This document shows positions 12,761 to 24,742 of a stretch of 64,000 nucleotides of DNA, one piece after another. The notes under the pieces are model-generated. The model did not search any database, was not told where the DNA came from, and worked only from the letters and a program-made list of their open reading frames with translations. Every line of letters starts with the position of its first letter. Position 1 is the first letter of the stretch. The stretch comes from Ostreococcus lucimarinus (lineage: Eukaryota). The stretch lies in NCBI GenBank assembly GCA_000092065.1, contig CP000589.1. One strand, written 5' to 3'. Both the position numbers and the translations under genes were made by a program.

Positions 12761-15418
12761 TTGCGAGCGATGGCGCGCGAAGACGGCGCGCGACGCAAGG
12801 AACGCAAGGACGAGCGCACGGTGGCGATGGAGAAGATGGTGATGGAACTCGCGGCGGCGGCGGCGGTGGTGGATGGGAATAAAACGTCGGTGAGCGAACG
12901 GGCGAGCGGGGCAAGCGGCGGGAGCAGCCTGACGAGGGCGCCGGACGCGGAGCGAGAGCGCGAGGAGGGACAAGCGTTGACGTTGGACGCGTTGGTGATG
13001 GCGAGCGCTGGATCGAATAAAAGAGCGAAGAGCGCGGGCGTTAAAGTGGCGAAACGGAAGAAGATGGAAGATAAGGGGGAGCGAAGGTGGTATTGTTGCT
13101 CGTGCAAGCAGACGCTGACGCCGGAACACTTCGATCCGAATTTGGAGACGTGTCGGTTGTGCTTGGCGAAACGTCGAGCGAAAGATCGGGCGAAGAAACG
13201 ACTTCGAGGGCTTCAGCTCAAGCATCACTTGTTGAGTGCGGATGAGAAAGATGTGGCGGCGTTTTTGTTGGGAGTGTATCATCCGGCGCTCACGCAGCAA
13301 GGGCCGCGATCTTCATCTTTTAACTCCATACAGATGAACGTGCAACGAGCGTCGATGGAAGTGAGCGCATTCGTAGAGGACTTCCGCAGCTTCCTCGAGG
13401 ACAAGCCCAAGGAACAAGCGGACAGATTGGTCCGCACGTTTTTGGGTTTGGACGATGCTGGAGAAAGGCTCACACCTCATCAAGTGATCAACGAGAAGGG
13501 TTCCGCGAAGAGGAATACGATGTCATCCAAAGCGAATAGCGCAAAGGCGACGCACAACTATCGCGCCCCAGCTTCATCGATGGGTGGCCGGCAAGAGTTG
13601 ACGAAGAGCCTGGACACCGTATACGATAAGTACGACGCGCTATTGAAAAACACCAGCGATGATCAAACGTGGGTTCGTTTCGCGGCGGAGAACGAGCAGG
13701 ACACTGATCTGGATGCTGAGAAGGTCAACTATTCCGCACCGATACATGAATCAGCTGCCGAAACCGGCACAAACGAGAAGGATGACGTGTACAGCGCCAT
13801 CATGCACGGCGCGGATCCCACCGTCAGTCATTACCTGTATCAATTCTTGTTCATGAATCAGCCGACAATCGGAGGCGAACACAGCACGATGGTCGTGGAG
13901 AGTGATCTCCCACAGCTTACGGGCCAGCTTCCATTGCGCGCAGTCGATAGCCTTTCGGAAGGGTCCAGCTTAAATGGTGCGACTAATGTGAGCTCGGAAT
14001 CGGACAACGTGTACAACACCTTGGATGAAGAGGAGCTGAACGGCAACGCATACGCGTTCAAGGGCTCGCTCGTGATGGGTTGGATTGGAGGCGCTCGTGA
14101 TGGAAAGAGAGAACTGCTAGCGAAAGAGAACGGTATCCTTCCGGACGATATGCACCCGCAAGCTGTGTTTAGCCATGGAAGACTGTTCGACGCGCGCACG
14201 CCTGGGAAGTTGGTTCCTCTCACCGAGACGGAGAACTTACACGGGTTTTCAGAAGATCTTGCGATTTTCCCCGTCAAGGATTCTTCGTCTGACATCGTTC
14301 GCATTCATATTCCGCCGGGATCTTTCAGCGAGGAGCTCGGTGTGAGAGCGTTGCACGATGGTCACTACATCGATTCTGAACTTCGCCACAGGCGCAACGG
14401 CGGAGCCGAGGTGATCCTATACCCGAACGGTAGAGACGATCGAGAGCGCAACGCAATCGTTATCCTCGGTGCTGTTCATTTACAATGTTTCGTTCGTAGC
14501 GGTACGGCGAAACAGATGCCTATCGGTTGCAACATCCCAGCGCTCTTCATACCGAGCCAAGCGCACGCGAAAGAGATTAGCGATGGCGTAGAGCACATTG
14601 CGCAAGTCAAGGGTACGAAAGCGGCCCGGCAGTTTTTGTCTTCGCTCGCGTACGTACTTGTGCACGGCGAACCAAAGAGCGCTAAGTTTGAGTTTGTCGT
14701 CGAAATGGCGCACATCCTCGCGCTCACGAGAACTTTGGATCTGCTCGAGCGATTGGCGATGTTGGCAAAGTCGTCGCTATCGAGCGATGATTCAGACACT
14801 TCTATCTCCGAAGTAGCGAGATTAGAAGTCTATAAGCCCTCGGATAATTTCTGGCAACACGCCGGTCATACCGACTCTTTTCTTGGAATCCTCCTTTGTC
14901 TTGTTGCGGGATTTATCCGTCTTATCGCTTCGGCTGTGAGCGGAGCGCGACTGAATTATGGATTCTATGCCACGCTCTTGGCCGCGGCCGCGCTTTCGGC
15001 AACGAACCCGAAGACCCGTGTAGACATCAAAAGCATTGCCTTCAACATGCTTTTTATCTGGGCACACGCAGCATCCATGCACTCAGATGATCTGACCAAT
15101 CAAATGACGTCTTACGGCAAGGCGCTGGTCATCACGCTTGCGCTCTCGGCACTGAACGCCTCGCATTCGCGCATGAGCAGCTCGTCAAGCTTTGTGTTAC
15201 CACAGCTCGCCTTTGCCGGAAGTGGCTATAACCCACACACCATTTTCCGCTTTATGAAGCAAGCGTTGCCTCAGGACGGAAGTATACCACAAAACGCGCT
15301 GCGAGCGCACGCCTGGACCGTTCACATCAGTTGCGCACTGCTGGCACCCGCGATCCTCATCTCTTGTATTTCGCAACTTCCAGGTGCACGAGTTCGCTCA
15401 AAATCTAAGCTTGCGTGA
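12761..15418 (+). CDS. large hypothetical protein with N-terminal Cys4 zinc-ribbon-like motif and C-terminal multi-TM region
   Basis: 885-aa ORF. CCSCKQTLTPEHFDPNLETCRLC motif. At least five hydrophobic helices in the last 200 aa. GC content falls sharply inside this gene (start of the low-GC island). No family recognised. Confidence 0.45.
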   Translation: MRAMAREDGARRKERKDERTVAMEKMVMELAAAAAVVDGNKTSVSERASGASGGSSLTRAPDAEREREEGQALTLDALVMASAGSNKRAKSAGVKVAKRKKMEDKGERRWYCCSCKQTLTPEHFDPNLETCRLCLAKRRAKDRAKKRLRGLQLKHHLLSADEKDVAAFLLGVYHPALTQQGPRSSSFNSIQMNVQRASMEVSAFVEDFRSFLEDKPKEQADRLVRTFLGLDDAGERLTPHQVINEKGSAKRNTMSSKANSAKATHNYRAPASSMGGRQELTKSLDTVYDKYDALLKNTSDDQTWVRFAAENEQDTDLDAEKVNYSAPIHESAAETGTNEKDDVYSAIMHGADPTVSHYLYQFLFMNQPTIGGEHSTMVVESDLPQLTGQLPLRAVDSLSEGSSLNGATNVSSESDNVYNTLDEEELNGNAYAFKGSLVMGWIGGARDGKRELLAKENGILPDDMHPQAVFSHGRLFDARTPGKLVPLTETENLHGFSEDLAIFPVKDSSSDIVRIHIPPGSFSEELGVRALHDGHYIDSELRHRRNGGAEVILYPNGRDDRERNAIVILGAVHLQCFVRSGTAKQMPIGCNIPALFIPSQAHAKEISDGVEHIAQVKGTKAARQFLSSLAYVLVHGEPKSAKFEFVVEMAHILALTRTLDLLERLAMLAKSSLSSDDSDTSISEVARLEVYKPSDNFWQHAGHTDSFLGILLCLVAGFIRLIASAVSGARLNYGFYATLLAAAALSATNPKTRVDIKSIAFNMLFIWAHAASMHSDDLTNQMTSYGKALVITLALSALNASHSRMSSSSSFVLPQLAFAGSGYNPHTIFRFMKQALPQDGSIPQNALRAHAWTVHISCALLAPAILISCISQLPGARVRSKSKLA

Positions 15419-15509: not shown

Positions 15510-16553
15510 TCACGTTGCCGCGCCCGTTGTGTACAATTCCATCGCCAAACTCACTAGTGCGATGCTAATGATTATTCGCAGCGGCATCGTCTCGTGTTCG
15601 ATACATACGTGAATGATGGCGACCACGAGCATCGACAGCGCGGACACAAAACATTTGTAAATGTTGTCCAGGTACTTCAGAATGAAAGACACTGCCAACC
15701 CGCCGAACGACAGGACGACCAAACTTACCCAAGCATAAAAGTTGAATCCGGTAAAAAGTCCATTCTTTAACGCTTCTCCTTTCCAAACTATTGGAATCGC
15801 ACCACAAATCACGCCCCAAAAGTACAGTTGCATATTCTGCCAATGAATGCTATCCGTCGCCCCGTCTTGGTTGCTGCCCTTGAGCAGCTTCTCCGACAAC
15901 ACACTCCCGGACGCAGCGATGAACGTGTTTATCACCACAAGCACGTACCCATACACACTCCCGCGTAACTGATTAGAATCTGTGATCTCCGCCGTGACAG
16001 ATCCCAATAATAACAAGAACAGCGCTCTCCACTGCAACGAAGTTAACCGCCGCCCGAGCAGCGTCCACATCAGCACCCCGGTACTTAAAATTTTCAAGTT
16101 ATTCATGATCTGATACGTCGACGGCCCCAGTTCTTGTATGATGAGGAGCATACAGTTATTCGCGACGAAATAGCACAGCGCGGGAAGCGCAAACGAGGTG
16201 AAGCGTTTCGCGCTCCACGTCACTTCTTCGACTCCTCCGCACGCCCGCGACGTCGTCAAAAAGATGAACGACAACACCAGCTTCACCGACTCCATCGTGA
16301 ACGCCAGCACCACGGTATCGTACGGATAATCATCATCACTGTTCCGGCTCAGACTCGCGAATATCGTTCCCGCCACTTGCAGGAACAAGTACGACACCAT
16401 GCTCAACACCTTGATCGACAGCGGCGTTTCCGTCCTTCCGTCGCTCTTCTTCTCGGTCGGCGTCGCATCTCGCGCGAGTTCGCCGTCCGCATCCTTCCCA
16501 TCTCGCGCGAGCAGCGATTCGCGCTCATTCGCGCTCGCGCTCGCGCTCGCCAT
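15510..16553 (-). CDS. nucleotide-sugar transporter (SLC35A/UDP-galactose/CMP-sialic acid transporter family)
   Basis: 347-aa polytopic ORF. Conserved NST blocks (LKILSTGVLMWTLLGRRL, LLLLGSVTA, FALPALCYFVANNCMLLIIQELGPSTYQIMNNLKI). Confidence 0.75.
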   Translation of the reverse strand: MASASASANERESLLARDGKDADGELARDATPTEKKSDGRTETPLSIKVLSMVSYLFLQVAGTIFASLSRNSDDDYPYDTVVLAFTMESVKLVLSFIFLTTSRACGGVEEVTWSAKRFTSFALPALCYFVANNCMLLIIQELGPSTYQIMNNLKILSTGVLMWTLLGRRLTSLQWRALFLLLLGSVTAEITDSNQLRGSVYGYVLVVINTFIAASGSVLSEKLLKGSNQDGATDSIHWQNMQLYFWGVICGAIPIVWKGEALKNGLFTGFNFYAWVSLVVLSFGGLAVSFILKYLDNIYKCFVSALSMLVVAIIHVCIEHETMPLRIIISIALVSLAMELYTTGAAT

Positions 16554-16662
16554 CGCGTCGGTGTCTGCCGCAACGAACGATGGGTGTTACGTCGCGCGAG
16601 CCATCGCGGCAGACGCCGACGCGATTCGCGTCGTTCGCGGACGAAGCGACCGCGCGCGAACC
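16554..16662. promoter_or_regulatory. putative bidirectional promoter between divergently transcribed transporter and methyltransferase genes
   Basis: Only 109 bp separate the start codons at 16553 (minus) and 16663 (plus). This is an inference from gene arrangement only. Confidence 0.3.
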
Positions 16663-17955
16663 ATGGAATGCGTCGATTCTCTCGACGACACCGCGCACGC
16701 GGAGGACGGGCACGAGGAGTACTGCGCGGACACGGCGGTGTCGACGGCGCGCGTCCGGACGCTGCCGAAGACGCGCATCGTCGCGCGAAACGCGTGCGCG
16801 ATCACGGGCGCGAGCGACTTCGAGCCGCTGCTCACGCTGCGAGATTTTCCGGTGGGGATGTACTGCGTCCCGGAGGAGTGGGACGGCGTGGAGTACGTCG
16901 CGGACATGCGATGGTGCGTGAGCAAGAGCTCGGGGGTGATCCAGCTCGCGGAACTCATCGAGGCGGAGACGCTGTATGATTGTCAACACGAGAGCGGCGC
17001 GATCGGAGGACTGTGGAAGCGACATCACGAAGAATTTTGTGAGTTTATCGATGCGTACGGATGTGAGAGCGTGTTGGAGATCGGCAGTGGACACGGACAT
17101 CTGGCGAAGGAGTTTGTCGCGCGAAGACGCGGGAAATGCCGATGGACAATGGTGGAACCGAACTTGCCGAGTTGGTTGCTCACGGGTGATCATCCGAGCG
17201 AAATTCACCCGATCTCGGCGTGGTTTTGTGATTCGTTCGAATTACCGAAAGACGTACCGAAAATCGACGCTGTGGTACATTCGCACACGTTTGAGCACAT
17301 CTACGATTACGACGAGTTTCTTCGCAACGTGGCAAGAATGGAACCCAAGTTTCAAATATTTTCGGTGCCACACCAGCGGGAATGGCTGGCGCGTGGTTGG
17401 CAAAATAGCATCATGTTCGAACACCCGCAACTGTTGACGCCGAAAGCGATCGAGTACATTATGTCACGTCACGGTTTCGAGTTGCAAGGAAAGAAAGTTT
17501 TCGCCGACGGGCACTCAATGTTTTACGCGTTTTCATACGCGGGAAACGCGAGCAAAAGCGAGACATCGCAGCAATCTCTCGATGAGTACGCAGAGAACAA
17601 GCGTCTTTTTCGTAACTGGCTCAAATCCAACGTTGATTTCGTCCAGAATGTGAACGATCGCATCGATGAAGCGACTATGAATGGAGAAAAGCCAACAGTT
17701 TACATGTTTGGGGCGCACATCTTCACGCAGTACCTCGTCAGCTTTGGATTGCGTATATCCGCAGTTGAGGCGATTTTGGATAACGCCGAAGGAAAGCAAG
17801 GAAAGAGACTGTACGGCCTTCCTCTCTTGGTGCACTCTCCGAAAATTCTCTCTAATGTAGAACGACCAATCGTCATCTTACGAGTCGGCGCGTACGCCGA
17901 AGAAATAAAACGCGGCATTCTCGAAGTGAACGCTCGCACGGTCTTTTGGGAGTAA
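16663..17955 (+). CDS. bacterial-type sugar C-methyltransferase (TylC3-like; Methyltransf_13/14 plus C-methyltransferase C-terminal domain)
   Basis: N-terminal Cys-rich Zn-ribbon-like region. SAM motif I VLEIGSGHGHLAKEF. C-terminal domain resembling the C-methyltransferase C-terminal domain (PTVYMFGAHIFTQYLVSFGL). Low GC (about 50%) relative to the window average. The upstream in-frame ORF part (16399-16662) overlaps the transporter gene and is not counted. Confidence 0.6.
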   Translation: MECVDSLDDTAHAEDGHEEYCADTAVSTARVRTLPKTRIVARNACAITGASDFEPLLTLRDFPVGMYCVPEEWDGVEYVADMRWCVSKSSGVIQLAELIEAETLYDCQHESGAIGGLWKRHHEEFCEFIDAYGCESVLEIGSGHGHLAKEFVARRRGKCRWTMVEPNLPSWLLTGDHPSEIHPISAWFCDSFELPKDVPKIDAVVHSHTFEHIYDYDEFLRNVARMEPKFQIFSVPHQREWLARGWQNSIMFEHPQLLTPKAIEYIMSRHGFELQGKKVFADGHSMFYAFSYAGNASKSETSQQSLDEYAENKRLFRNWLKSNVDFVQNVNDRIDEATMNGEKPTVYMFGAHIFTQYLVSFGLRISAVEAILDNAEGKQGKRLYGLPLLVHSPKILSNVERPIVILRVGAYAEEIKRGILEVNARTVFWE

Positions 17956-18025: not shown

Positions 18026-20347
18026 TCACGCCATGACACTTGTCACACCCCGCGCGGCCCACTCGGCGTCGTACAAATGCGTAAACGCATTGGCCAGCCT
18101 TAAAATGTACATGAAGGGAAAGTTGGGTTCGCTGAGCTTGCTCGCATCGATGCACCCGAACCACACAGCCACAAACAAAGGAAATCCAGCCAAAGCGCTG
18201 CTTACTTGTGCGATGCGCTCATCTTTCGGTACGACGACGTTGTCCAACTTTTGCCTAGAATCATAATACGTGTTGACGAGCACTTCGGCCAATTGTTCAA
18301 AGTCCTCTATGTCACAGCTCTCGACGAGAAGGAACACGATGTCTTCGATACCTTGACCTGGGCGCGCGTACTGCCAATCAATAAAGATTGGTTCGCCGCC
18401 GTTCACTTGATAATCCCAGAATAAATTTGGAAATTTGAGGTCACCGTGAAGAAGCGTTTGCGGAGCTCTTCGAAGTCGCAGCTCGGCGTCCGCAAAGTTT
18501 GCCGCCGCGTGGTCAAACAGCACGAAAACTTGTTCACCGAGCGTATTGAACCATCGATTTCGAAACGTTGCGTAGTGTTCTTGCACGTGCTGTCGCATAT
18601 ACGTGTCATAAACCGATAGCCTTCCCAACGGCGCGCCTCGGAAGTGTGAATGCAACCTCGCCATCGTGTTCACCACCTTGAGGCCGCTTTCAAGACAAAA
18701 GTCTGGCGCTCGATCATACTTTCGTAAATCCTCCATGACGATAGCGCGTGACGTCGGAAGGACGCCGTAGCAGATCGGTACACGTACCGGCATGATACTC
18801 GCAAAATCTTCATAGAACTTACACTCGGTGTCGTGAAGGTTCAAGTGTTCGCTCACCTCCATCAAGACTCCGTGATCAGAGTTTTCTTGCTTCACCACAA
18901 GATGTCTTGAACCGGAGGTCGCCGAAAGAATTTCAGAAATGTAGCCACCGCTTGCTCGAATCGGATACACAACGGATCGTTGACCCAATACTTCGGACAG
19001 TTCGTTAGAAAGGTGCGCCACAGAATTCATCGTCTCCAATAACTCCTCTGGGTCTTCAGCGACATAATTCGCGATAAACGAATCGCTGCCTGACACGTTT
19101 GTATTAACAGAGACGACGTATTGGCATCCCGCTGCGCGTCCGGAAATCAAACCGCATCGAGAGTCCTCGAAGACAATGGAGTTTCCGATCGAGACTCCAA
19201 GTCTTCTCGCCGCTTTCAAGTACGGCTCCGCGTTTGGTTTACCAAATCTCACGTCACTCGCGGAAATAAGCGGTAAATCATCCAATGCAAGATGTTTCAA
19301 CAAAGCTTTGGCGGCGGTTCTGTTGGAATTAGTCACTACGGACACTGGTCCGAGCGCACGACACTTTTGCACAAATTCCACCGCGCCTGGAATTTCTTTG
19401 GTCTTTTCGATGTATCGCAAGAACGCTTCGTCTTTCTGCTCTGACGAAATCTGCAGCTTGAAACGCTGCGCGACTTGGGCGTCAGATTGTCCGCTGATGT
19501 GTTTGAGGAAGAATTCTTCGTCGACAAACGCGCCCATCGGAGCGAGGATCTCGCGCCAAGCCGCGACGTAGGCATCCGTGGTGTCCACAAGAGTACCGTC
19601 CAAATCAAACAAAAATGCATATCCCTGTTTGGACAAGTACTGCTCTAAACACTCAGGCGTACCGATGTTCGAGTATTGGTCCTCAGCGATGACGACGGAG
19701 CTGACGTGCTTGTCTCGCGCGACGTACTCTTTCAAAACGCATGAAACGTACGCCTCGCCGCGCTCAAACTTTCCTTCTTGAGTCAAAATATCCTTCGTCA
19801 ATTCAAGAAATTCTTTTTCACTCGCGAACCAGTACGCTCCAGTGTTCGCGTAAGGACCCACGCGCGACTTCTCCGCGATTTTGGTCACGCGTCCGCCGTC
19901 CCCGCTCGTCTCAACGTATGAATATTTTGCCGCCGTCTCACGCTCACGCGCGGATTCCTCAAAGCACAGGACCGCCGCGCGCACCTCCGGTTGTTTTTCC
20001 AGCGCCCGAAACCGTTCGATGACGTCGCAATGATACACCGCATCGCAGTCCACCAACAGGAGCGACGCGTCGTTTGTCGCCGACACCGTCCCCAGCGCGA
20101 GCGCCGCCGTCTCCGCCGCCCCGACCGTCGCACGCGCCAAGCGCACCGTGGTGAACCCTCGTTCGGGGACGGAATCATCGAAATTCGTCACCACGACGCA
20201 CGTGTCGCGGTTGTCATCGACGCACAGCGCTTCCGTGACGACGTGTATCATCGCCTTGCCGATCACTGGGATGAGCGGCTTGATGTCTTCGTAGCCTTGC
20301 GCTCGGAAGCGCTCGCCGCGTCCACACGCTGGAATGAGGACGCGCAT
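18026..20347 (-). CDS. tri-domain fusion: sugar-phosphate nucleotidyltransferase (MurU/LicC-like) + HAD beta-phosphoglucomutase-like phosphatase + choline-kinase/aminoglycoside-phosphotransferase-like kinase (AmgK-like)
   Basis: 773-aa ORF. N-terminal MRVLIPACGRGERF ... IKPLIPVIGKAMIHV (nucleotidyltransferase GxGxR motif). Central YAFLFDLDGTLVDTT ... SIVFEDSRCGLISGRAAG (HAD motifs I-III). C-terminal LLHGDLKFPNLFW (Brenner motif) and IDWQYARPGQGIEDIVFLLVE (ChoK/APH motif). Confidence 0.7.
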   Translation of the reverse strand: MRVLIPACGRGERFRAQGYEDIKPLIPVIGKAMIHVVTEALCVDDNRDTCVVVTNFDDSVPERGFTTVRLARATVGAAETAALALGTVSATNDASLLLVDCDAVYHCDVIERFRALEKQPEVRAAVLCFEESARERETAAKYSYVETSGDGGRVTKIAEKSRVGPYANTGAYWFASEKEFLELTKDILTQEGKFERGEAYVSCVLKEYVARDKHVSSVVIAEDQYSNIGTPECLEQYLSKQGYAFLFDLDGTLVDTTDAYVAAWREILAPMGAFVDEEFFLKHISGQSDAQVAQRFKLQISSEQKDEAFLRYIEKTKEIPGAVEFVQKCRALGPVSVVTNSNRTAAKALLKHLALDDLPLISASDVRFGKPNAEPYLKAARRLGVSIGNSIVFEDSRCGLISGRAAGCQYVVSVNTNVSGSDSFIANYVAEDPEELLETMNSVAHLSNELSEVLGQRSVVYPIRASGGYISEILSATSGSRHLVVKQENSDHGVLMEVSEHLNLHDTECKFYEDFASIMPVRVPICYGVLPTSRAIVMEDLRKYDRAPDFCLESGLKVVNTMARLHSHFRGAPLGRLSVYDTYMRQHVQEHYATFRNRWFNTLGEQVFVLFDHAAANFADAELRLRRAPQTLLHGDLKFPNLFWDYQVNGGEPIFIDWQYARPGQGIEDIVFLLVESCDIEDFEQLAEVLVNTYYDSRQKLDNVVVPKDERIAQVSSALAGFPLFVAVWFGCIDASKLSEPNFPFMYILRLANAFTHLYDAEWAARGVTSVMA

Positions 20348-22598: not shown

Positions 22599-22619
22599 AA
22601 GGATGTCCGACGTATCAAT

Positions 22620-23029
22620 ACGTCGACGGCCCCAGTTCTTGTATGATGAGGAGCATACAGTTATTCGCGACGAAATAGCACAGCGCGGGAAGCGCAAACG
22701 AGGTGAAGCGTTTCGCGCTCCACGTCACTTCTTCGACTCCTCCGCACGCCCGCGACGTCGTCAAAAAGATGAACGACAACACCAGCTTCACCGACTCCAT
22801 CGTGAACGCCAGCACCACGGTATCGTACGGATAATCATCATCACTGTTCCGGCTCAGACTCGCGAATATCGTTCCCGCCACTTGCAGGAACAAGTACGAC
22901 ACCATGCTCAACACCTTGATCGACAGCGGCGTTTCCGTCCTTCCGTCGCTCTTCTTCTCGGTCGGCGTCGCATCTCGCGCGAGTTCGCCGTCCGCATCCT
23001 TCCCATCTCGCGCGAACAGCGGTTCGCGA
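22620..23029 (-). pseudogene. duplicated fragment of the nucleotide-sugar transporter gene (copy of 16114-16523, N-terminal ~145 codons without start codon)
   Basis: About 410 bp nearly identical to 16114-16523. The fragment lacks the first ~10 codons. It is fused in an ORF (22615-23565) to sequence antisense of the GT25 gene, so it is treated as a chimeric pseudogene. Confidence 0.7.
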
Positions 23030-23188
23030 GTCTGGAAAGCGCTTCCGTGCGGTACAAGCGAGTCGCCCCAATAGGAGTAGGTGTAGCCTAGCTGTAGCTG
23101 TAGCTCCGTCGCCGACAAATGTCCGACCGATCGACAGAGACCGACGCGCGTCCGCAGCCGACACTGCGCGCGCCCACGCGACGCGAGA

Positions 23189-24742
23189 ATGAGTGACAAA
23201 GACGCGCAAAGCATCTCTCGCGGCGAGCGCTCGAATTTGCTCGCGCGCAACGCCGCGAACGGCGTCGTTGAGGGTGTTGCGAGCATCCTGGACGAAGAGC
23301 GCGGTGAGACCGACGTGAGCGAGCGATCCCGAGCGAGAACGTCGACGTCGCGAGGATGTCTCGCGAGTGTTGCGCTGATGGCGTGTGCGGTCGGCGCGGG
23401 GATGGCGGTCGCGTCGCGCGGGGGGGTCGACGACGCGAGGACGAGCGCACGAGCTCGCGGCGGTGGGAAATCGACGCTCGGGATCAGTGGAGCGACACGA
23501 GCTCGCGGCGGTGGGAAATCGACGCTCGGGATCAGTGGAGCGACGGGAGTGCGGACGTATATCATAGCAGATACGTCGCCCGGAGACGAGATGGAGAGAT
23601 CTAGGAAAGGACGCGATTACGTGTTCAACCTGTTCAAAACGCACGGTGGTTTGAGCGACGCCGAAGCGCGCAATACTGTGGAAATCTCGAGTGCGACGTT
23701 TCCTTCGCTTTGGCCGGATACCTTCGAGACAGCGCGAAGCGCGACGCACGATGTACTAGCGGGAGCCCTTGCTGCTTCAGAAGCGAACGTTCCAACCAGT
23801 GAGTTGCCGTATCCCATCAGACAGGTTCACGAATCGCAGCTCAATCCACAGCACCGTTGCGTCGGCGAAAAATGCGTATTCCCGTATAACCACCACCTTG
23901 GATGTCTTCTATCTCACATGTCTGTGTGGAAGAAAGCTATTTCGCGAGGTGAGGATCGGTTTGCCGTGTGGGAGCAAGATGGTATGGGGATCGCTTCCGT
24001 GAGCCCGCTTGACTACACAGAGCTCGGACGCCAGCTTCCTCGCGACGCAGATATGGTCTGGCTCCTCCCCATTGGAAGAAGCACCGGTCAATTCGTGAAA
24101 AAGTTCCGCTCAAGGGCGTTTGGCACGTGGGGGAAAGGTACCTGGGGTCTCGTAAAGACAGACTGGTCGCCCGAATCGATGCACACGGCGATGAATTCAA
24201 CGCACGTTTATTTGTACAAGTGGAACAAAATGTGCTCGTGGGCAGGAACGGCAGCTCTCATGTTCACCAAGCAAGGCGTCGAGAAAATTCTTCGGTACAG
24301 TACCGAACACAGTCTCGACATGATCGATGCTTTCCTCATTGGCGGATGCATCCATAAATCGGGAAAGACGAGTCGTCTTTCCTTGAACTGTTATCACGCG
24401 TCGAGCGTGCCAACCAAGAAAGAGCTCCTGGGTGGAATCGTGCCCGATTGGTACACTGACGAAACCGTGGGCGATCGAGCACTTCCTCAAGAGCAGGTTG
24501 ACGCCATGGATCGGGATGACGCCAAGTTCAACTCGCTTGGTTGTCAGCGCGGCGGCGACGAGTTCAAGTCAAAATCTGCCTGGATTCCCACGTCCTGGGC
24601 TGGAGACGACTCCGCGGATTCGTGCGTTCCCTCCTGGAACGCCCCGGTGGACGTGTGCGATGCATCCGTGAAGTATCCACTCGATGGACACAAGTACTCA
24701 TACCTCGGCAGCGCGATGTTGCGTACAAAGCCCGAGCGTTAG
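23189..24742 (+). CDS. glycosyltransferase family 25 (Lic2A/LPS-beta-1,4-galactosyltransferase-like) type-II membrane protein
   Basis: 517-aa ORF. Signal anchor CLASVALMACAVGAGMAVA. GT25 hallmark GCLLSHMSVWKKAISRGEDRFAVWEQD. Internal 48-bp tandem duplication encoding ARGGGKSTLGISGAT twice in the stem. Confidence 0.6.
   Translation: MSDKDAQSISRGERSNLLARNAANGVVEGVASILDEERGETDVSERSRARTSTSRGCLASVALMACAVGAGMAVASRGGVDDARTSARARGGGKSTLGISGATRARGGGKSTLGISGATGVRTYIIADTSPGDEMERSRKGRDYVFNLFKTHGGLSDAEARNTVEISSATFPSLWPDTFETARSATHDVLAGALAASEANVPTSELPYPIRQVHESQLNPQHRCVGEKCVFPYNHHLGCLLSHMSVWKKAISRGEDRFAVWEQDGMGIASVSPLDYTELGRQLPRDADMVWLLPIGRSTGQFVKKFRSRAFGTWGKGTWGLVKTDWSPESMHTAMNSTHVYLYKWNKMCSWAGTAALMFTKQGVEKILRYSTEHSLDMIDAFLIGGCIHKSGKTSRLSLNCYHASSVPTKKELLGGIVPDWYTDETVGDRALPQEQVDAMDRDDAKFNSLGCQRGGDEFKSKSAWIPTSWAGDDSADSCVPSWNAPVDVCDASVKYPLDGHKYSYLGSAMLRTKPER
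23449..23544 (+). repeat. perfect 48-bp tandem duplication inside the GT25 coding region
   Basis: acgagctcgcggcggtgggaaatcgacgctcgggatcagtggagcgac occurs twice consecutively (23449-23496 and 23497-23544). Confidence 0.9.

What the first reader, a model, noticed from the sequence alone, without database searches (positions are those of the whole stretch)
16663..17955. Bacterial-type NDP-sugar C-methyltransferase-like gene, divergent from a nucleotide-sugar transporter with a 109-bp shared spacer
Architecture (Cys-rich N-terminus, GSGHG SAM motif, C-terminal C-methyltransferase-like domain) is typical of bacterial TylC3-like enzymes in O-antigen/antibiotic sugar clusters and unusual for a eukaryote. 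It is head-to-head with the SLC35-type transporter (start codons at 16553 and 16663), suggesting co-regulation from a bidirectional promoter. That would link production of a methylated nucleotide sugar to its import into the Golgi.
Basis: partly seen in the sequence, partly recalled or inferred. Interest (0 to 1): 0.6.

Follow-up and report, generated by a model that had tools for sequence, protein, structure and literature searches.

The report
Sugar-nucleotide methyltransferase gene cluster in Ostreococcus
This tiny green alga carries a real methyltransferase gene, shared with bacteria and giant viruses, that sits beside an enzyme for making an activated sugar and a Golgi sugar transporter, so it probably helps build a methylated cell-surface sugar, although its O. 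tauri counterpart has already been published.

Summary
The gene is real: 16663-17955 (+), 430 aa, head-to-head with an SLC35A-type transporter across 109 bp. It is not a canonical TylC3 enzyme. It belongs to a large uncharacterised family of about 380 aa found in bacteria, giant viruses, phages and some algae. This family shares the three-domain fold and the catalytic His/Glu residues of the NDP-sugar 3-C-methyltransferases MtmC, TcaB9 and KijD1 at about 18% identity. It lacks their Cys4 zinc site and has no conserved link to a 4,6-dehydratase.

The conserved partner is the convergent downstream gene (18026-20347), not the transporter. That gene fuses a nucleotidyltransferase, a HAD phosphatase and an APH-type kinase. 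The pairing recurs in other Mamiellales, including O. tauri chromosome 19, and in giant-virus genomes. In 65 of 80 bacterial loci a nucleotidyltransferase-kinase fusion sits directly upstream of the methyltransferase.

The O. tauri orthologues, published as "C-methyltransferase" and "aminoglycoside phosphotransferase", fall together with a GT25 and a transporter in virus-resistant lines. The 109-bp spacer is ordinary for this compact genome, and the transporter adjacency is not conserved.

Best reading: a cytosolic module that activates and methylates a sugar for a Golgi glycan. The sugar and the methylated atom remain unknown.

The parts
16663..17955 (+). Methyltransferase CDS, 430 aa. No hydrophobic segment or signal peptide, so it is presumably cytosolic.
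   Evidence: ORF. The same product is called on L001 and L002. Pfam Methyltransf_23 scores 3e-13. AF2 model pLDDT 89. Whole-length fold match to MtmC/TcaB9/KijD1. No TM-like window.
16768..16977 (+). N-terminal beta-rich domain (about residues 36-105). It corresponds to the Zn-binding domain of TcaB9 and MtmC but lacks the four Cys ligands. Residues 1-35 are a non-conserved acidic extension with low pLDDT.
   Evidence: Alignments to MtmC. Family alignment A1 shows no CxxC pairs. No PF08421 hit even at E<=10. pLDDT profile.
17065..17484 (+). Class I SAM-binding Rossmann domain (residues 135-274). It includes motif I, GSGHG (17083-17097), the invariant HSHxFEH (residues 206-212) and the invariant FEH (residues 252-254, 17416-17424).
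   Evidence: Pfam. Invariant columns. H212, E253 and H254 align with TcaB9 H181, E224 and H225.
17602..17910 (+). C-terminal Rossmann-like domain (residues 314-416), equivalent to the nucleotide-sugar-binding domain of TcaB9-type enzymes.
   Evidence: PF08484 sub-threshold at E=0.01, 16 bits. Aligned through to the C-terminus with MtmC and TcaB9. Fold match covers 411-419 columns.
16554..16662 (.). 109-bp GC-rich (70%) spacer between the divergent start codons. A shared promoter region is presumed, not shown.
   Evidence: Sequence. Spacer-length comparison.
15510..16553 (-). SLC35A-type nucleotide-sugar transporter, 347 aa, multi-pass membrane protein.
   Evidence: Pfam Nuc_sug_transp 9e-41 and TIGR00803. 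Best PDB relatives are CMP-sialic acid transporters, 5.7e-33. Hydrophobic segments.
18026..20347 (-). Trifunctional enzyme, 773 aa, convergent with the methyltransferase with 70 bp between the stops. Domains: sugar-1-P nucleotidyltransferase (19628-20347), HAD-IA beta-phosphoglucomutase-like phosphatase (19013-19627), APH/EcKL-fold small-molecule kinase (18029-19012).
   Evidence: Pfam and NCBIfam. PDB sequence hits. Kinase-domain model pLDDT 94, with a generic APH fold whose matches include MTR kinase, NahK and LicA. Pairing with the methyltransferase is conserved.

Best explanation
The gene encodes a cytosolic, SAM-dependent methyltransferase that acts on a nucleotide-activated sugar. It belongs to an uncharacterised, zinc-less sister family of the TylC3/TcaB9/MtmC sugar C-methyltransferases.

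Proposed pathway:
1. The convergent neighbour, a fusion of nucleotidyltransferase, HAD phosphatase and APH-type kinase, converts a sugar phosphate or free sugar into sugar-1-phosphate and then into an NDP-sugar. This is the same logic as MupP/AmgK/MurU or HddA/GmhB/HddC.
2. The methyltransferase binds that NDP-sugar in its C-terminal domain and SAM in its middle domain. It transfers a methyl group using the invariant His/Glu pair.
3. The product is imported into the Golgi or ER by an SLC35 transporter, possibly the divergent neighbour, and built into a cell-surface glycan.

Shown here: the fold, the conserved catalytic residues, the domain content of the neighbours, and the conserved gene pairing across Mamiellales, giant viruses and bacteria.

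Inferred: the substrate class, the order of steps, the role of the transporter, and the surface-glycan destination.

Unresolved: which sugar, which nucleotide, and whether carbon or oxygen is methylated. I put C-methylation at roughly 40% and O-methylation at roughly 45%.
For: Fold and homology:
- AF2 model with pLDDT 89.
- Only MtmC, TcaB9 and KijD1 match over the whole length, with E 1e-22 to 1e-19 and TM 0.70-0.78. The next hits, at 6e-8, cover the methyltransferase core only.
- Family profile against the PDB: MtmC 8e-15, TcaB9 5.5e-8, KijD1 1.4e-7, aligned end to end. TcaB9 H181, E224 and H225 fall on invariant H212, E253 and H254.

Gene association:
- The methyltransferase is convergent with the trifunctional gene in this window, in L003-L005 (63-71% identity) and in O. 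tauri chromosome 19.
- The trifunctional gene is directly adjacent to family methyltransferases in giant-virus loci L168, L171, L172, L178 and L097/L098.
- In 65 of 80 bacterial loci a 524-aa nucleotidyltransferase+APH fusion lies immediately upstream, at a median of -18 bp. It is accompanied by a KdsC-like phosphatase (56 loci), a GatZ-like protein (46) and a cupin mannose-6-P-isomerase-like protein (40).
- L008-L010 carry a translationally coupled nucleotidyltransferase that is 26% identical to the window's nucleotidyltransferase domain (E 1e-22).
- Cyanophage S-SKS1 has the methyltransferase near a nucleotidyltransferase, an APH kinase, a phosphoheptose isomerase and a transaldolase.

Sugar chemistry of the neighbour: the nucleotidyltransferase domain's best families are sugar-1-P nucleotidylyltransferases, and the HAD domain's best are beta-PGM and sugar phosphatases.

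Localisation: neither the methyltransferase nor the trifunctional protein has a signal peptide or an N-terminal membrane anchor.

Expression: the O. tauri orthologues ostta19g00460 and ostta19g00470, plus a GT25 and a TPT transporter, are all expressed and co-repressed in OtV5-resistant lines (PMC5082852 S2 Table).
Against: - No member of this family has been characterised, and NCBIfam has no model for it.
- Similarity to the characterised C-methyltransferases is remote, and the Zn site is missing.
- The eukaryotic trifunctional protein is not an orthologue of the bacterial nucleotidyltransferase-kinase fusion. hhalign gives only 67% probability, over the nucleotidyltransferase domain alone.
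- The kinase fold does not distinguish sugar anomeric kinases from choline kinases.
- The giant-virus methyltransferases that sit next to a trifunctional gene form a distant branch of the family, so the pairing may have arisen more than once.
- The transporter adjacency is not conserved.
Confidence: 0.6

Rival explanations
1. It is a true TylC3/TcaB9-type enzyme. It would C-3-methylate an NDP-4-keto-6-deoxyhexose through an enolate, producing a branched-chain deoxysugar.
For: All characterised proteins with this three-domain fold do this chemistry. The catalytic His/Glu pair and H181 equivalent are invariant. The O. tauri orthologue is annotated 'C-methyltransferase'.
Against: There is no Zn Cys4 site and no PF08421 hit, and PF08484 is below threshold. 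No 4,6-dehydratase or other source of a keto-sugar was found in the window. None is among the conserved genes of 80 bacterial loci, whose core is phosphatase, GatZ-like, cupin and nucleotidyltransferase-kinase. TcaB9 Y222 is replaced by Met or Asn.
Confidence: 0.15
2. The module makes a non-sugar head group. The APH-type kinase and LicC-like nucleotidyltransferase would activate choline, ethanolamine or a similar alcohol, and the methyltransferase would methylate that CDP-linked or phospho-linked compound.
For: JGI names some trifunctional homologues 'choline kinase' or 'CTP:phosphocholine cytidylyltransferase'. LicA and the choline kinases are among the structural matches of the kinase domain.
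Against: The nucleotidyltransferase's best family matches are sugar-1-P nucleotidylyltransferases. The HAD domain matches sugar phosphatases and beta-PGM. Bacterial and phage partners are sugar-phosphate enzymes: GatZ-like, cupin PMI-like, KdsC-like, SIS/phosphoheptose isomerase, ribulose-P epimerase and transaldolase. The methyltransferase's only whole-length relatives act on NDP-sugars. The neighbour is a nucleotide-sugar transporter.
Confidence: 0.08
3. The methyltransferase and the transporter are adjacent only by chance of gene packing. The transporter is a general Golgi carrier unrelated to the methyltransferase product, and the two genes are not co-regulated.
For: Spacers of 100 bp or less are the norm for divergent pairs here. 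The adjacency is missing in O. tauri, where GT25 and a TPT-type carrier are nearby instead, and in L005. In L003 a paralogous transporter lies about 8 kb away. The O. tauri protein closest to this transporter is only 41% identical and sits on a 1.07-Mb contig, not chromosome 19.
Against: It is the only intact nucleotide-sugar transporter gene in 64 kb. It shares the lower-GC block with the methyltransferase and the trifunctional gene. An SLC35-family carrier lies within 8 kb of the pair in three different Mamiellales genomes. The O. tauri carrier is co-repressed with the pair.
Confidence: 0.45
4. The gene is bacterial contamination, an assembly artefact or a dead relic.
For: The family is bacterial-type. 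GC is slightly lower than in the flanking genes.
Against: The gene lies between clearly eukaryotic genes (Ank-HDAC, Rsm22, Prp19, Myb, protein kinase) on the same sequence. The arrangement recurs in two independent assemblies. The ORF is intact and all 47 family-invariant residues are kept. GC3 of 0.66 resembles the neighbours. Orthologues exist across Mamiellales, and the O. tauri one is transcribed.
Confidence: 0.01

Closest known systems
MtmC, TcaB9, KijD1 and TylC3-type NDP-4-keto-hexose 3-C-methyltransferases (PDB 4rv9, 3ndi, 5t64)
   Same: They share the three-domain architecture (N-terminal small domain, class I SAM domain, C-terminal nucleotide-sugar-binding Rossmann-like domain) with TM 0.70-0.78. 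They also share SAM motif I and equivalents of TcaB9 H181, E224 and H225.
   Different: Identity is only 16-19%. The four Zn-ligand cysteines are absent and there is no PF08421 hit. PF08484 is below the gathering score. TcaB9 Y222 is not conserved. No 4,6-dehydratase partner is present. The gene context differs (nucleotidyltransferase, kinase and phosphatase instead of deoxysugar genes), and the host is a eukaryote or giant virus.
O. tauri ostta19g00460 ('C-methyltransferase') and ostta19g00470 ('aminoglycoside phosphotransferase') on chromosome 19, the small outlier or 'viral immunity' chromosome (Yau et al. 2016, PMC5082852)
   Same: They are orthologues: the methyltransferase is about 69% identical and the trifunctional enzyme 62%. 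They show the same convergent arrangement.
   Different: In O. tauri the pair sits on the outlier chromosome next to a GT25 and a TPT-type transporter. Here it sits on an ordinary chromosome of an O. lucimarinus-like genome, next to a Nuc_sug_transp-type transporter. Neither protein has been characterised biochemically.
MupP/AmgK/MurU (Pseudomonas MurNAc recycling) and HddA/GmhB/HddC (GDP-heptose) activation trios
   Same: They combine the same three activities: a HAD phosphatase, a kinase and a sugar-1-P nucleotidyltransferase that turn a sugar phosphate into an NDP-sugar. AmgK also has the APH fold (the pathway logic is from established knowledge).
   Different: Here the three activities are fused into one polypeptide. 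All NCBIfam scores are far below the equivalog cut-offs (MupP 45 against 359, MurU 22 against 250). HddA is a GHMP kinase, not an APH-fold kinase. The substrate is unknown.
SLC35A1-type CMP-sialic acid and UDP-sugar transporters (PDB 6i1r, 6oh2), for the divergent neighbour
   Same: Pfam Nuc_sug_transp scores 140 bits, the full-length alignment to maize and mouse CMP-sialic acid transporters scores 5.7e-33, and the protein is multi-pass.
   Different: The substrate cannot be read from the sequence. The closest named algal relatives are only about 41-47% identical.

Membership tests
TylC3/TcaB9/MtmC-type NDP-4-keto-hexose C-methyltransferases | Three-domain fold: N-terminal domain, SAM Rossmann domain, C-terminal NDP-sugar-binding domain | tested here: met
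   Foldseek of the AF2 model (pLDDT 89) gives whole-length hits only to MtmC, TcaB9 and KijD1, with E 1e-22 to 1e-19 and TM 0.70-0.78.
TylC3/TcaB9/MtmC-type NDP-4-keto-hexose C-methyltransferases | N-terminal Cys4 zinc-binding motif (Pfam PF08421, Methyltransf_13) | tested here: not met
   No PF08421 hit even at E<=10. The MtmC CxxC...CxxC positions are C-A-I-T and S-K-S-S in the query. No conserved Cys pairs appear in 29 family members.
TylC3/TcaB9/MtmC-type NDP-4-keto-hexose C-methyltransferases | C-terminal domain PF08484 (Methyltransf_14) above Pfam's gathering score | tested here: not met
   16.0 bits against a cut-off of 23.5, E=0.01. Some family members do reach it in precomputed Pfam.
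TylC3/TcaB9/MtmC-type NDP-4-keto-hexose C-methyltransferases | Catalytic residues equivalent to TcaB9 H181, E224 and H225, plus SAM motif I | tested here: met
   H212, E253 and H254 are invariant in A1 and align to those residues. GSGHG is at 141-145. TcaB9 Y222 is not conserved.
TylC3/TcaB9/MtmC-type NDP-4-keto-hexose C-methyltransferases | Genomic association with an NDP-hexose 4,6-dehydratase or other source of the keto-sugar substrate | tested here: not met
   None was found among the 16 larger ORFs between 6 and 37 kb of the window that were scanned against Pfam or carry precomputed Pfam calls. None is among the conserved neighbours in 80 bacterial loci. An epimerase-type SDR occurs in only 19 of them.
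TylC3/TcaB9/MtmC-type NDP-4-keto-hexose C-methyltransferases | Demonstrated C-methylation of an NDP-sugar | not testable with these tools
   This needs an enzyme assay with product NMR or MS.
Uncharacterised ~380-aa zinc-less methyltransferase family (bacteria, giant viruses, phages, algae) | Full-length alignment at 35-45% identity with the family's invariant residues (e.g. HSHxFEH, NFEH, FGAHIFxQ, KRLYG) | tested here: met
   370 hits, with bacterial members at E 1e-70 to 1e-93. All 47 invariant columns are present in the query.
Uncharacterised ~380-aa zinc-less methyltransferase family (bacteria, giant viruses, phages, algae) | Adjacent sugar-1-P nucleotidyltransferase, usually with an APH-type kinase and a HAD phosphatase | tested here: met
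   Window gene 18026-20347. 65 of 80 bacterial loci. Viral loci. Phage S-SKS1.
SLC35A nucleotide-sugar transporters (neighbouring gene) | PF04142 above threshold and full-length similarity to solved CMP-sialic acid transporters | tested here: met
   140 bits against a cut-off of 27. 6i1r scores 5.7e-33 over residues 63-341.
Co-regulated divergent gene pair with a bidirectional promoter | Divergent arrangement conserved in related genomes | tested here: not met
   O. tauri has GT25 and a TPT-type carrier instead. In L005 the upstream gene is not a detectable transporter homologue. In L003 a 39-46% identical transporter lies about 8 kb away. The arrangement is found only in contigs about 99% identical to the window.
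Co-regulated divergent gene pair with a bidirectional promoter | Correlated expression and overlapping transcription start regions | not testable with these tools
   No expression data exist for this genome. The indirect O. tauri data show the orthologous cluster co-repressed in resistant lines.

The most novel reading that the evidence does not exclude
The methyltransferase and the trifunctional enzyme form a portable two-gene module. It has moved between giant viruses and Mamiellales and makes a so far undescribed methylated, possibly branched-chain, nucleotide sugar by a route that needs no 4,6-dehydratase. The resulting surface glycan would be a determinant of prasinovirus susceptibility. 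That would explain why the O. tauri copy lies on the 'viral immunity' chromosome and is repressed in resistant cells.
Probability: 0.2. Interest if true: 0.7.

Novelty: new member of a known kind. Interest (0 to 1): 0.4.

Why it matters
Surface glycans of Mamiellales are thought to control infection by prasinoviruses, but almost none of the sugars or enzymes are known. This locus offers a compact, testable three-gene route (activate, methylate, import) whose O. tauri orthologues already respond to virus resistance.

The methyltransferase family is also very widespread in marine bacteria (Pelagibacter, Prochlorococcus, Synechococcus), cyanophage and giant viruses, and no member has been characterised. 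Identifying its product once would therefore annotate thousands of genes.

As a genome observation it is an orthologue of an already published gene, not a surprise.

Tried and rejected
- NCBIfam gave no hit for the methyltransferase or for the kinase domain.
- Profile-profile comparison of the eukaryotic trifunctional protein with the bacterial nucleotidyltransferase-kinase fusion found only a weak nucleotidyltransferase-domain match (67% probability). I therefore do not call them orthologues.
- tblastn of the other conserved bacterial operon genes (GatZ-like, cupin, KdsC-like, SIS, ribulose-P epimerase) against the window found nothing.
- I tried to identify the kinase's substrate class. The PDB profile search gave only weak hits to YihE and MTR kinase. 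The fold search gave a generic APH fold, with MTR kinase, NahK, LicA and choline kinases all at similar scores. This was inconclusive.
- Literature searches for the operon, for TcaB9-like enzymes in giant viruses and for the O. tauri gene identifiers found nothing beyond Yau et al. 2016.
- The plasmid search was uninformative.
- The AFDB50 fold library was unavailable.
- A first NJ tree was corrupted by truncated extractions. It was redone after filtering.
- I rejected contamination or pseudogene status, and I rejected treating the 109-bp spacer as meaningful in itself.
Full report
**The observation.** The window is a gene-dense, intron-poor eukaryotic sequence of about 60% GC. An ORF at 16663-17955 (+) encodes 430 aa. 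Independent gene callers on two metagenome contigs that carry the identical protein call the same product. On the opposite strand, 15510-16553 encodes a 347-aa protein that hits Pfam Nuc_sug_transp at 9e-41. Its best solved relatives are CMP-sialic acid transporters at 5.7e-33. The two ATGs are 109 bp apart. GSGHG sits at residues 141-145, and all ten cysteines lie in residues 3-189.

**Which organism.** A 223-aa protein named "predicted protein [Ostreococcus lucimarinus CCE9901]" is encoded exactly at 22615-23286 of the window. In the public record it lies on a 670,853-bp contig. The window is therefore O. lucimarinus CCE9901 or a strain more than 99% identical. The chromosome is an ordinary one, because the small outlier chromosome of that species is only about 150 kb (PMC5082852). 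The flanking genes are housekeeping types: ankyrin-HDAC, YchF, Rsm22, Prp19-like, Myb and a protein kinase.

**What the methyltransferase is.**
- By Pfam only the generic Methyltransf_23 domain passes. The C-methyltransferase C-terminal domain PF08484 scores 16 bits against a cut-off of 23.5, and the zinc domain PF08421 is not detected at all. NCBIfam has no model for it.
- Against PDB sequences the single protein finds only MtmC, a D-mycarose 3-C-methyltransferase (E 3.8e-4, full length). A profile of 29 family members finds MtmC at 8e-15, TcaB9 at 5.5e-8 and KijD1 at 1.4e-7, again end to end.
- An AlphaFold model (pLDDT 89, pTM 0.88) matches only these three enzymes over its whole length, with E 1e-22 to 1e-19, TM 0.70-0.78 and 16-19% identity. 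Every other hit, from 6e-8 down, covers the SAM domain alone.
- TcaB9's H181, E224 and H225 align with H212, E253 and H254, which are invariant in the family.
- The four zinc-ligand cysteines are replaced, and no conserved Cys pairs exist anywhere in the family.

The protein is thus a remote, zinc-less relative of the TylC3-type enzymes. It is a member of their fold superfamily but not of their family.

**The family and its relatives.** The search returned 370 homologues. After close relatives at 55-98% identity come about 380-aa proteins at 35-45% identity. A scan of one genome per prokaryotic species confirmed 171 loci. They include Campylobacter concisus, Arcobacter, Wolinella, Legionella, Chlorobium, Pelagibacteraceae, Prochlorococcus, Synechococcus, many CPR bacteria and one DPANN archaeon. 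A viral scan confirmed 104 loci, including giant-virus MAGs. Cyanophage S-SKS1 also has a copy.

In a neighbour-joining tree of 175 sequences the window groups with 11 other sequences (37 of 37 bootstraps). Some of these are named Mamiellales sequences or algal transcripts, and the rest are unnamed metagenome sequences. The sister clade holds giant-virus MAG sequences, the cryptophyte Hemiselmis and unnamed sequences (35 of 37). The two clades together are separated from the bacterial bulk in 37 of 37 replicates. "Bacterial-type" is therefore right for the family as a whole. The immediate relatives, however, are algal and giant-viral.

**The conserved partner.** The gene convergent with the methyltransferase (18026-20347, 773 aa) fuses three domains:
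- A sugar-1-phosphate nucleotidyltransferase. Its best NCBIfam matches are archaeal GlmU, AglF and RmlA, all below cut-off.
- A HAD-IA phosphatase of the beta-phosphoglucomutase or sugar-phosphatase type.
- An APH/EcKL-fold kinase.

The same convergent pair occurs in relatives at 63-71% identity (L003-L005) and in O. tauri. Proteins of about 800 aa with the same three domains, at about 30% identity, lie in giant-virus contigs. In giant-virus loci L168, L171, L172, L178 and L097/L098 they sit directly beside a family methyltransferase. Those viral methyltransferases form a distant branch of the family, so the pairing is either ancient or has arisen more than once.

In bacteria, clustering of the neighbours in 80 loci gave these counts:
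- A 524-aa nucleotidyltransferase+APH-kinase fusion immediately upstream in 65 loci (median -18 bp).
- A KdsC-like phosphatase in 56 loci.
- A GatZ/KbaZ-like protein in 46.
- A cupin mannose-6-P-isomerase-like protein in 40.
- Ribulose-phosphate 3-epimerase in 9 and a SIS isomerase in 7.

Other arrangements are a methyltransferase with HAD and nucleotidyltransferase genes (L058 and several viral loci) or a translationally coupled nucleotidyltransferase that is 26% identical to the window's nucleotidyltransferase domain. In cyanophage S-SKS1 the methyltransferase lies near a nucleotidyltransferase-RibB fusion, an APH kinase, a phosphoheptose isomerase and a transaldolase.

The eukaryotic fusion is not an orthologue of the bacterial one, since hhalign finds only a weak nucleotidyltransferase match. 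The functional theme is nevertheless constant: this methyltransferase travels with the enzymes that turn a sugar phosphate into an NDP-sugar. No 4,6-dehydratase belongs to the conserved set.

**How it most likely works.** Neither the methyltransferase nor the trifunctional enzyme has a signal peptide or an N-terminal anchor. I infer the following cytosolic sequence:
1. A sugar phosphate is converted to sugar-1-phosphate by phosphatase plus anomeric kinase, or by kinase then phosphatase as in the heptose pathway.
2. The sugar-1-phosphate is converted to an NDP-sugar.
3. The methyltransferase methylates the NDP-sugar using the invariant His/Glu pair.
4. An SLC35 carrier imports the product for use by Golgi glycosyltransferases.

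The sugar, the nucleotide and the methylated atom are not determined. The fold precedent favours C-methylation next to a carbonyl. The absence of any enzyme that would generate a keto-sugar argues for a different substrate or for O-methylation. The kinase-domain model (pLDDT 94) is a generic APH fold. Its matches include the anomeric sugar kinases MTR kinase and NahK, but also LicA and the choline kinases.

**The transporter and the spacer.** The 109-bp spacer is not distinctive. In a crude gene set for the window the divergent spacers are -2, -2, 57, 65, 74, 96, 100, 425 bp and larger. The head-to-head arrangement is seen only in contigs about 99% identical to the window. In O. tauri the pair is flanked by a GT25 and a TPT-type carrier. 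In L003 a 39-46% identical Nuc_sug_transp gene lies about 8 kb away, and in L005 no homologue of this transporter is detectable.

Three points still favour a functional link:
- An SLC35-family carrier lies within 8 kb of the pair in three genomes.
- This is the only intact transporter gene of that type in the 64 kb.
- The unknown 882-aa ORF, the transporter, the methyltransferase and the trifunctional gene form a mildly lower-GC block, 53-55% against 57-61% for the neighbours.

I rate a real functional link to this particular transporter as about even odds.

**Comparison with the literature.** Yau et al. 2016 (PMC5082852) list four adjacent genes on chromosome 19 of O. tauri: ostta19g00460 "C-methyltransferase", ostta19g00470 "aminoglycoside phosphotransferase", ostta19g00480 GT25 and ostta19g00490 triose-phosphate transporter. 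This order is the same as in locus L179. All four are under-transcribed in OtV5-resistant lines, with log2 fold changes of -1.29, -1.90, -2.56 and -1.24. The gene was therefore already annotated and published, and its cluster is co-regulated. No biochemical work was found.

This analysis adds four things:
- The family is a distinct zinc-less one.
- Its conserved partner is the activation enzyme.
- The pair is shared with giant viruses.
- In the O. lucimarinus-type genome the pair sits on a normal chromosome beside a different transporter.

**Verdict.** The gene is a new member, an orthologue, of a known but uncharacterised kind. Interest is moderate (0.4). It is a good experimental lead for algal and viral glycobiology, but it is not a surprise to a specialist.

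Noticed in passing
window 16113-16523 and 22618-23028: A 411-bp direct repeat at 99.5% identity. Codons 11-147 of the transporter gene are duplicated about 6.5 kb away. There they form the 3' end of ORF 22615-23565 (-). From the ATG at 23286 this ORF equals the annotated 223-aa 'predicted protein' of O. lucimarinus CCE9901. It looks like a recent chimeric or truncated gene fragment. Recombination between the two copies would delete the methyltransferase and the trifunctional gene.
   Followed up: partly
window 23443-23544: The N-terminal part of ORF 22615-23565 contains a tandem 48-bp (16-aa) repeat, VAPLIPSVDFPPPRAR. It shows up as offset self-matches in blastn.
   Followed up: no
window 16663-17955: There is a strong 5' to 3' composition gradient inside the methyltransferase CDS. 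GC3 is 0.92 and 0.90 in the first 300 nt and 0.52-0.66 afterwards. The GC-rich part covers the non-conserved N-terminal extension and adjoins the 70%-GC spacer.
   Followed up: no
window 12770-15418 (+): An 882-aa ORF with no Pfam hit even at E<=1 and two TM-like segments near the C-terminus. It lies tail-to-tail with the transporter in the same lower-GC block (about 13-20 kb, 53-55% GC). It could belong to the same glycan cluster, for example as an unrecognised glycosyltransferase.
   Followed up: partly
L179 (O. tauri CAID01000019.2) against the window: The methyltransferase/trifunctional pair lies on the small outlier 'viral immunity' chromosome in O. tauri. In this O. lucimarinus-type genome it lies on an ordinary 671-kb chromosome among housekeeping genes. 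The module has therefore moved between chromosome types within the genus.
   Followed up: partly
L097/L098, 10001-16290 (giant-virus contig, 361 kb): A 643-aa protein with a family methyltransferase domain and a weak PF08421 (Zn domain) hit is flanked by two different nucleotidyltransferase-HAD-kinase genes (801 and 627 aa), amid many glycosyltransferases.
   Followed up: no
L181 (Synechococcus phage S-SKS1), 8037-14011: The phage gene annotated '3,4-dihydroxy-2-butanone 4-phosphate synthase' is a fusion of a nucleotidyltransferase (homologous to the window's nucleotidyltransferase domain, E 5e-22) with a RibB domain. An APH-type kinase, a phosphoheptose isomerase and a transaldolase follow it. 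This hints that some family members act on a heptose-derived or rearranged sugar.
   Followed up: partly
alignment A1; window methyltransferase residues 206-212, 252-254, 284-285: The family has an unusual number of invariant or nearly invariant His and Glu residues (HSHxFEH, FEH, H284, H352, H121/H122). These might form a metal site absent from TcaB9.
   Followed up: no
L094-L096: A trifunctional homologue labelled 'HAD family hydrolase [bacterium]' in NCBI lies in a contig with TBP-like, DNA methylase and Collar-domain genes typical of giant viruses. This is probably a mis-binned viral contig.
   Followed up: no
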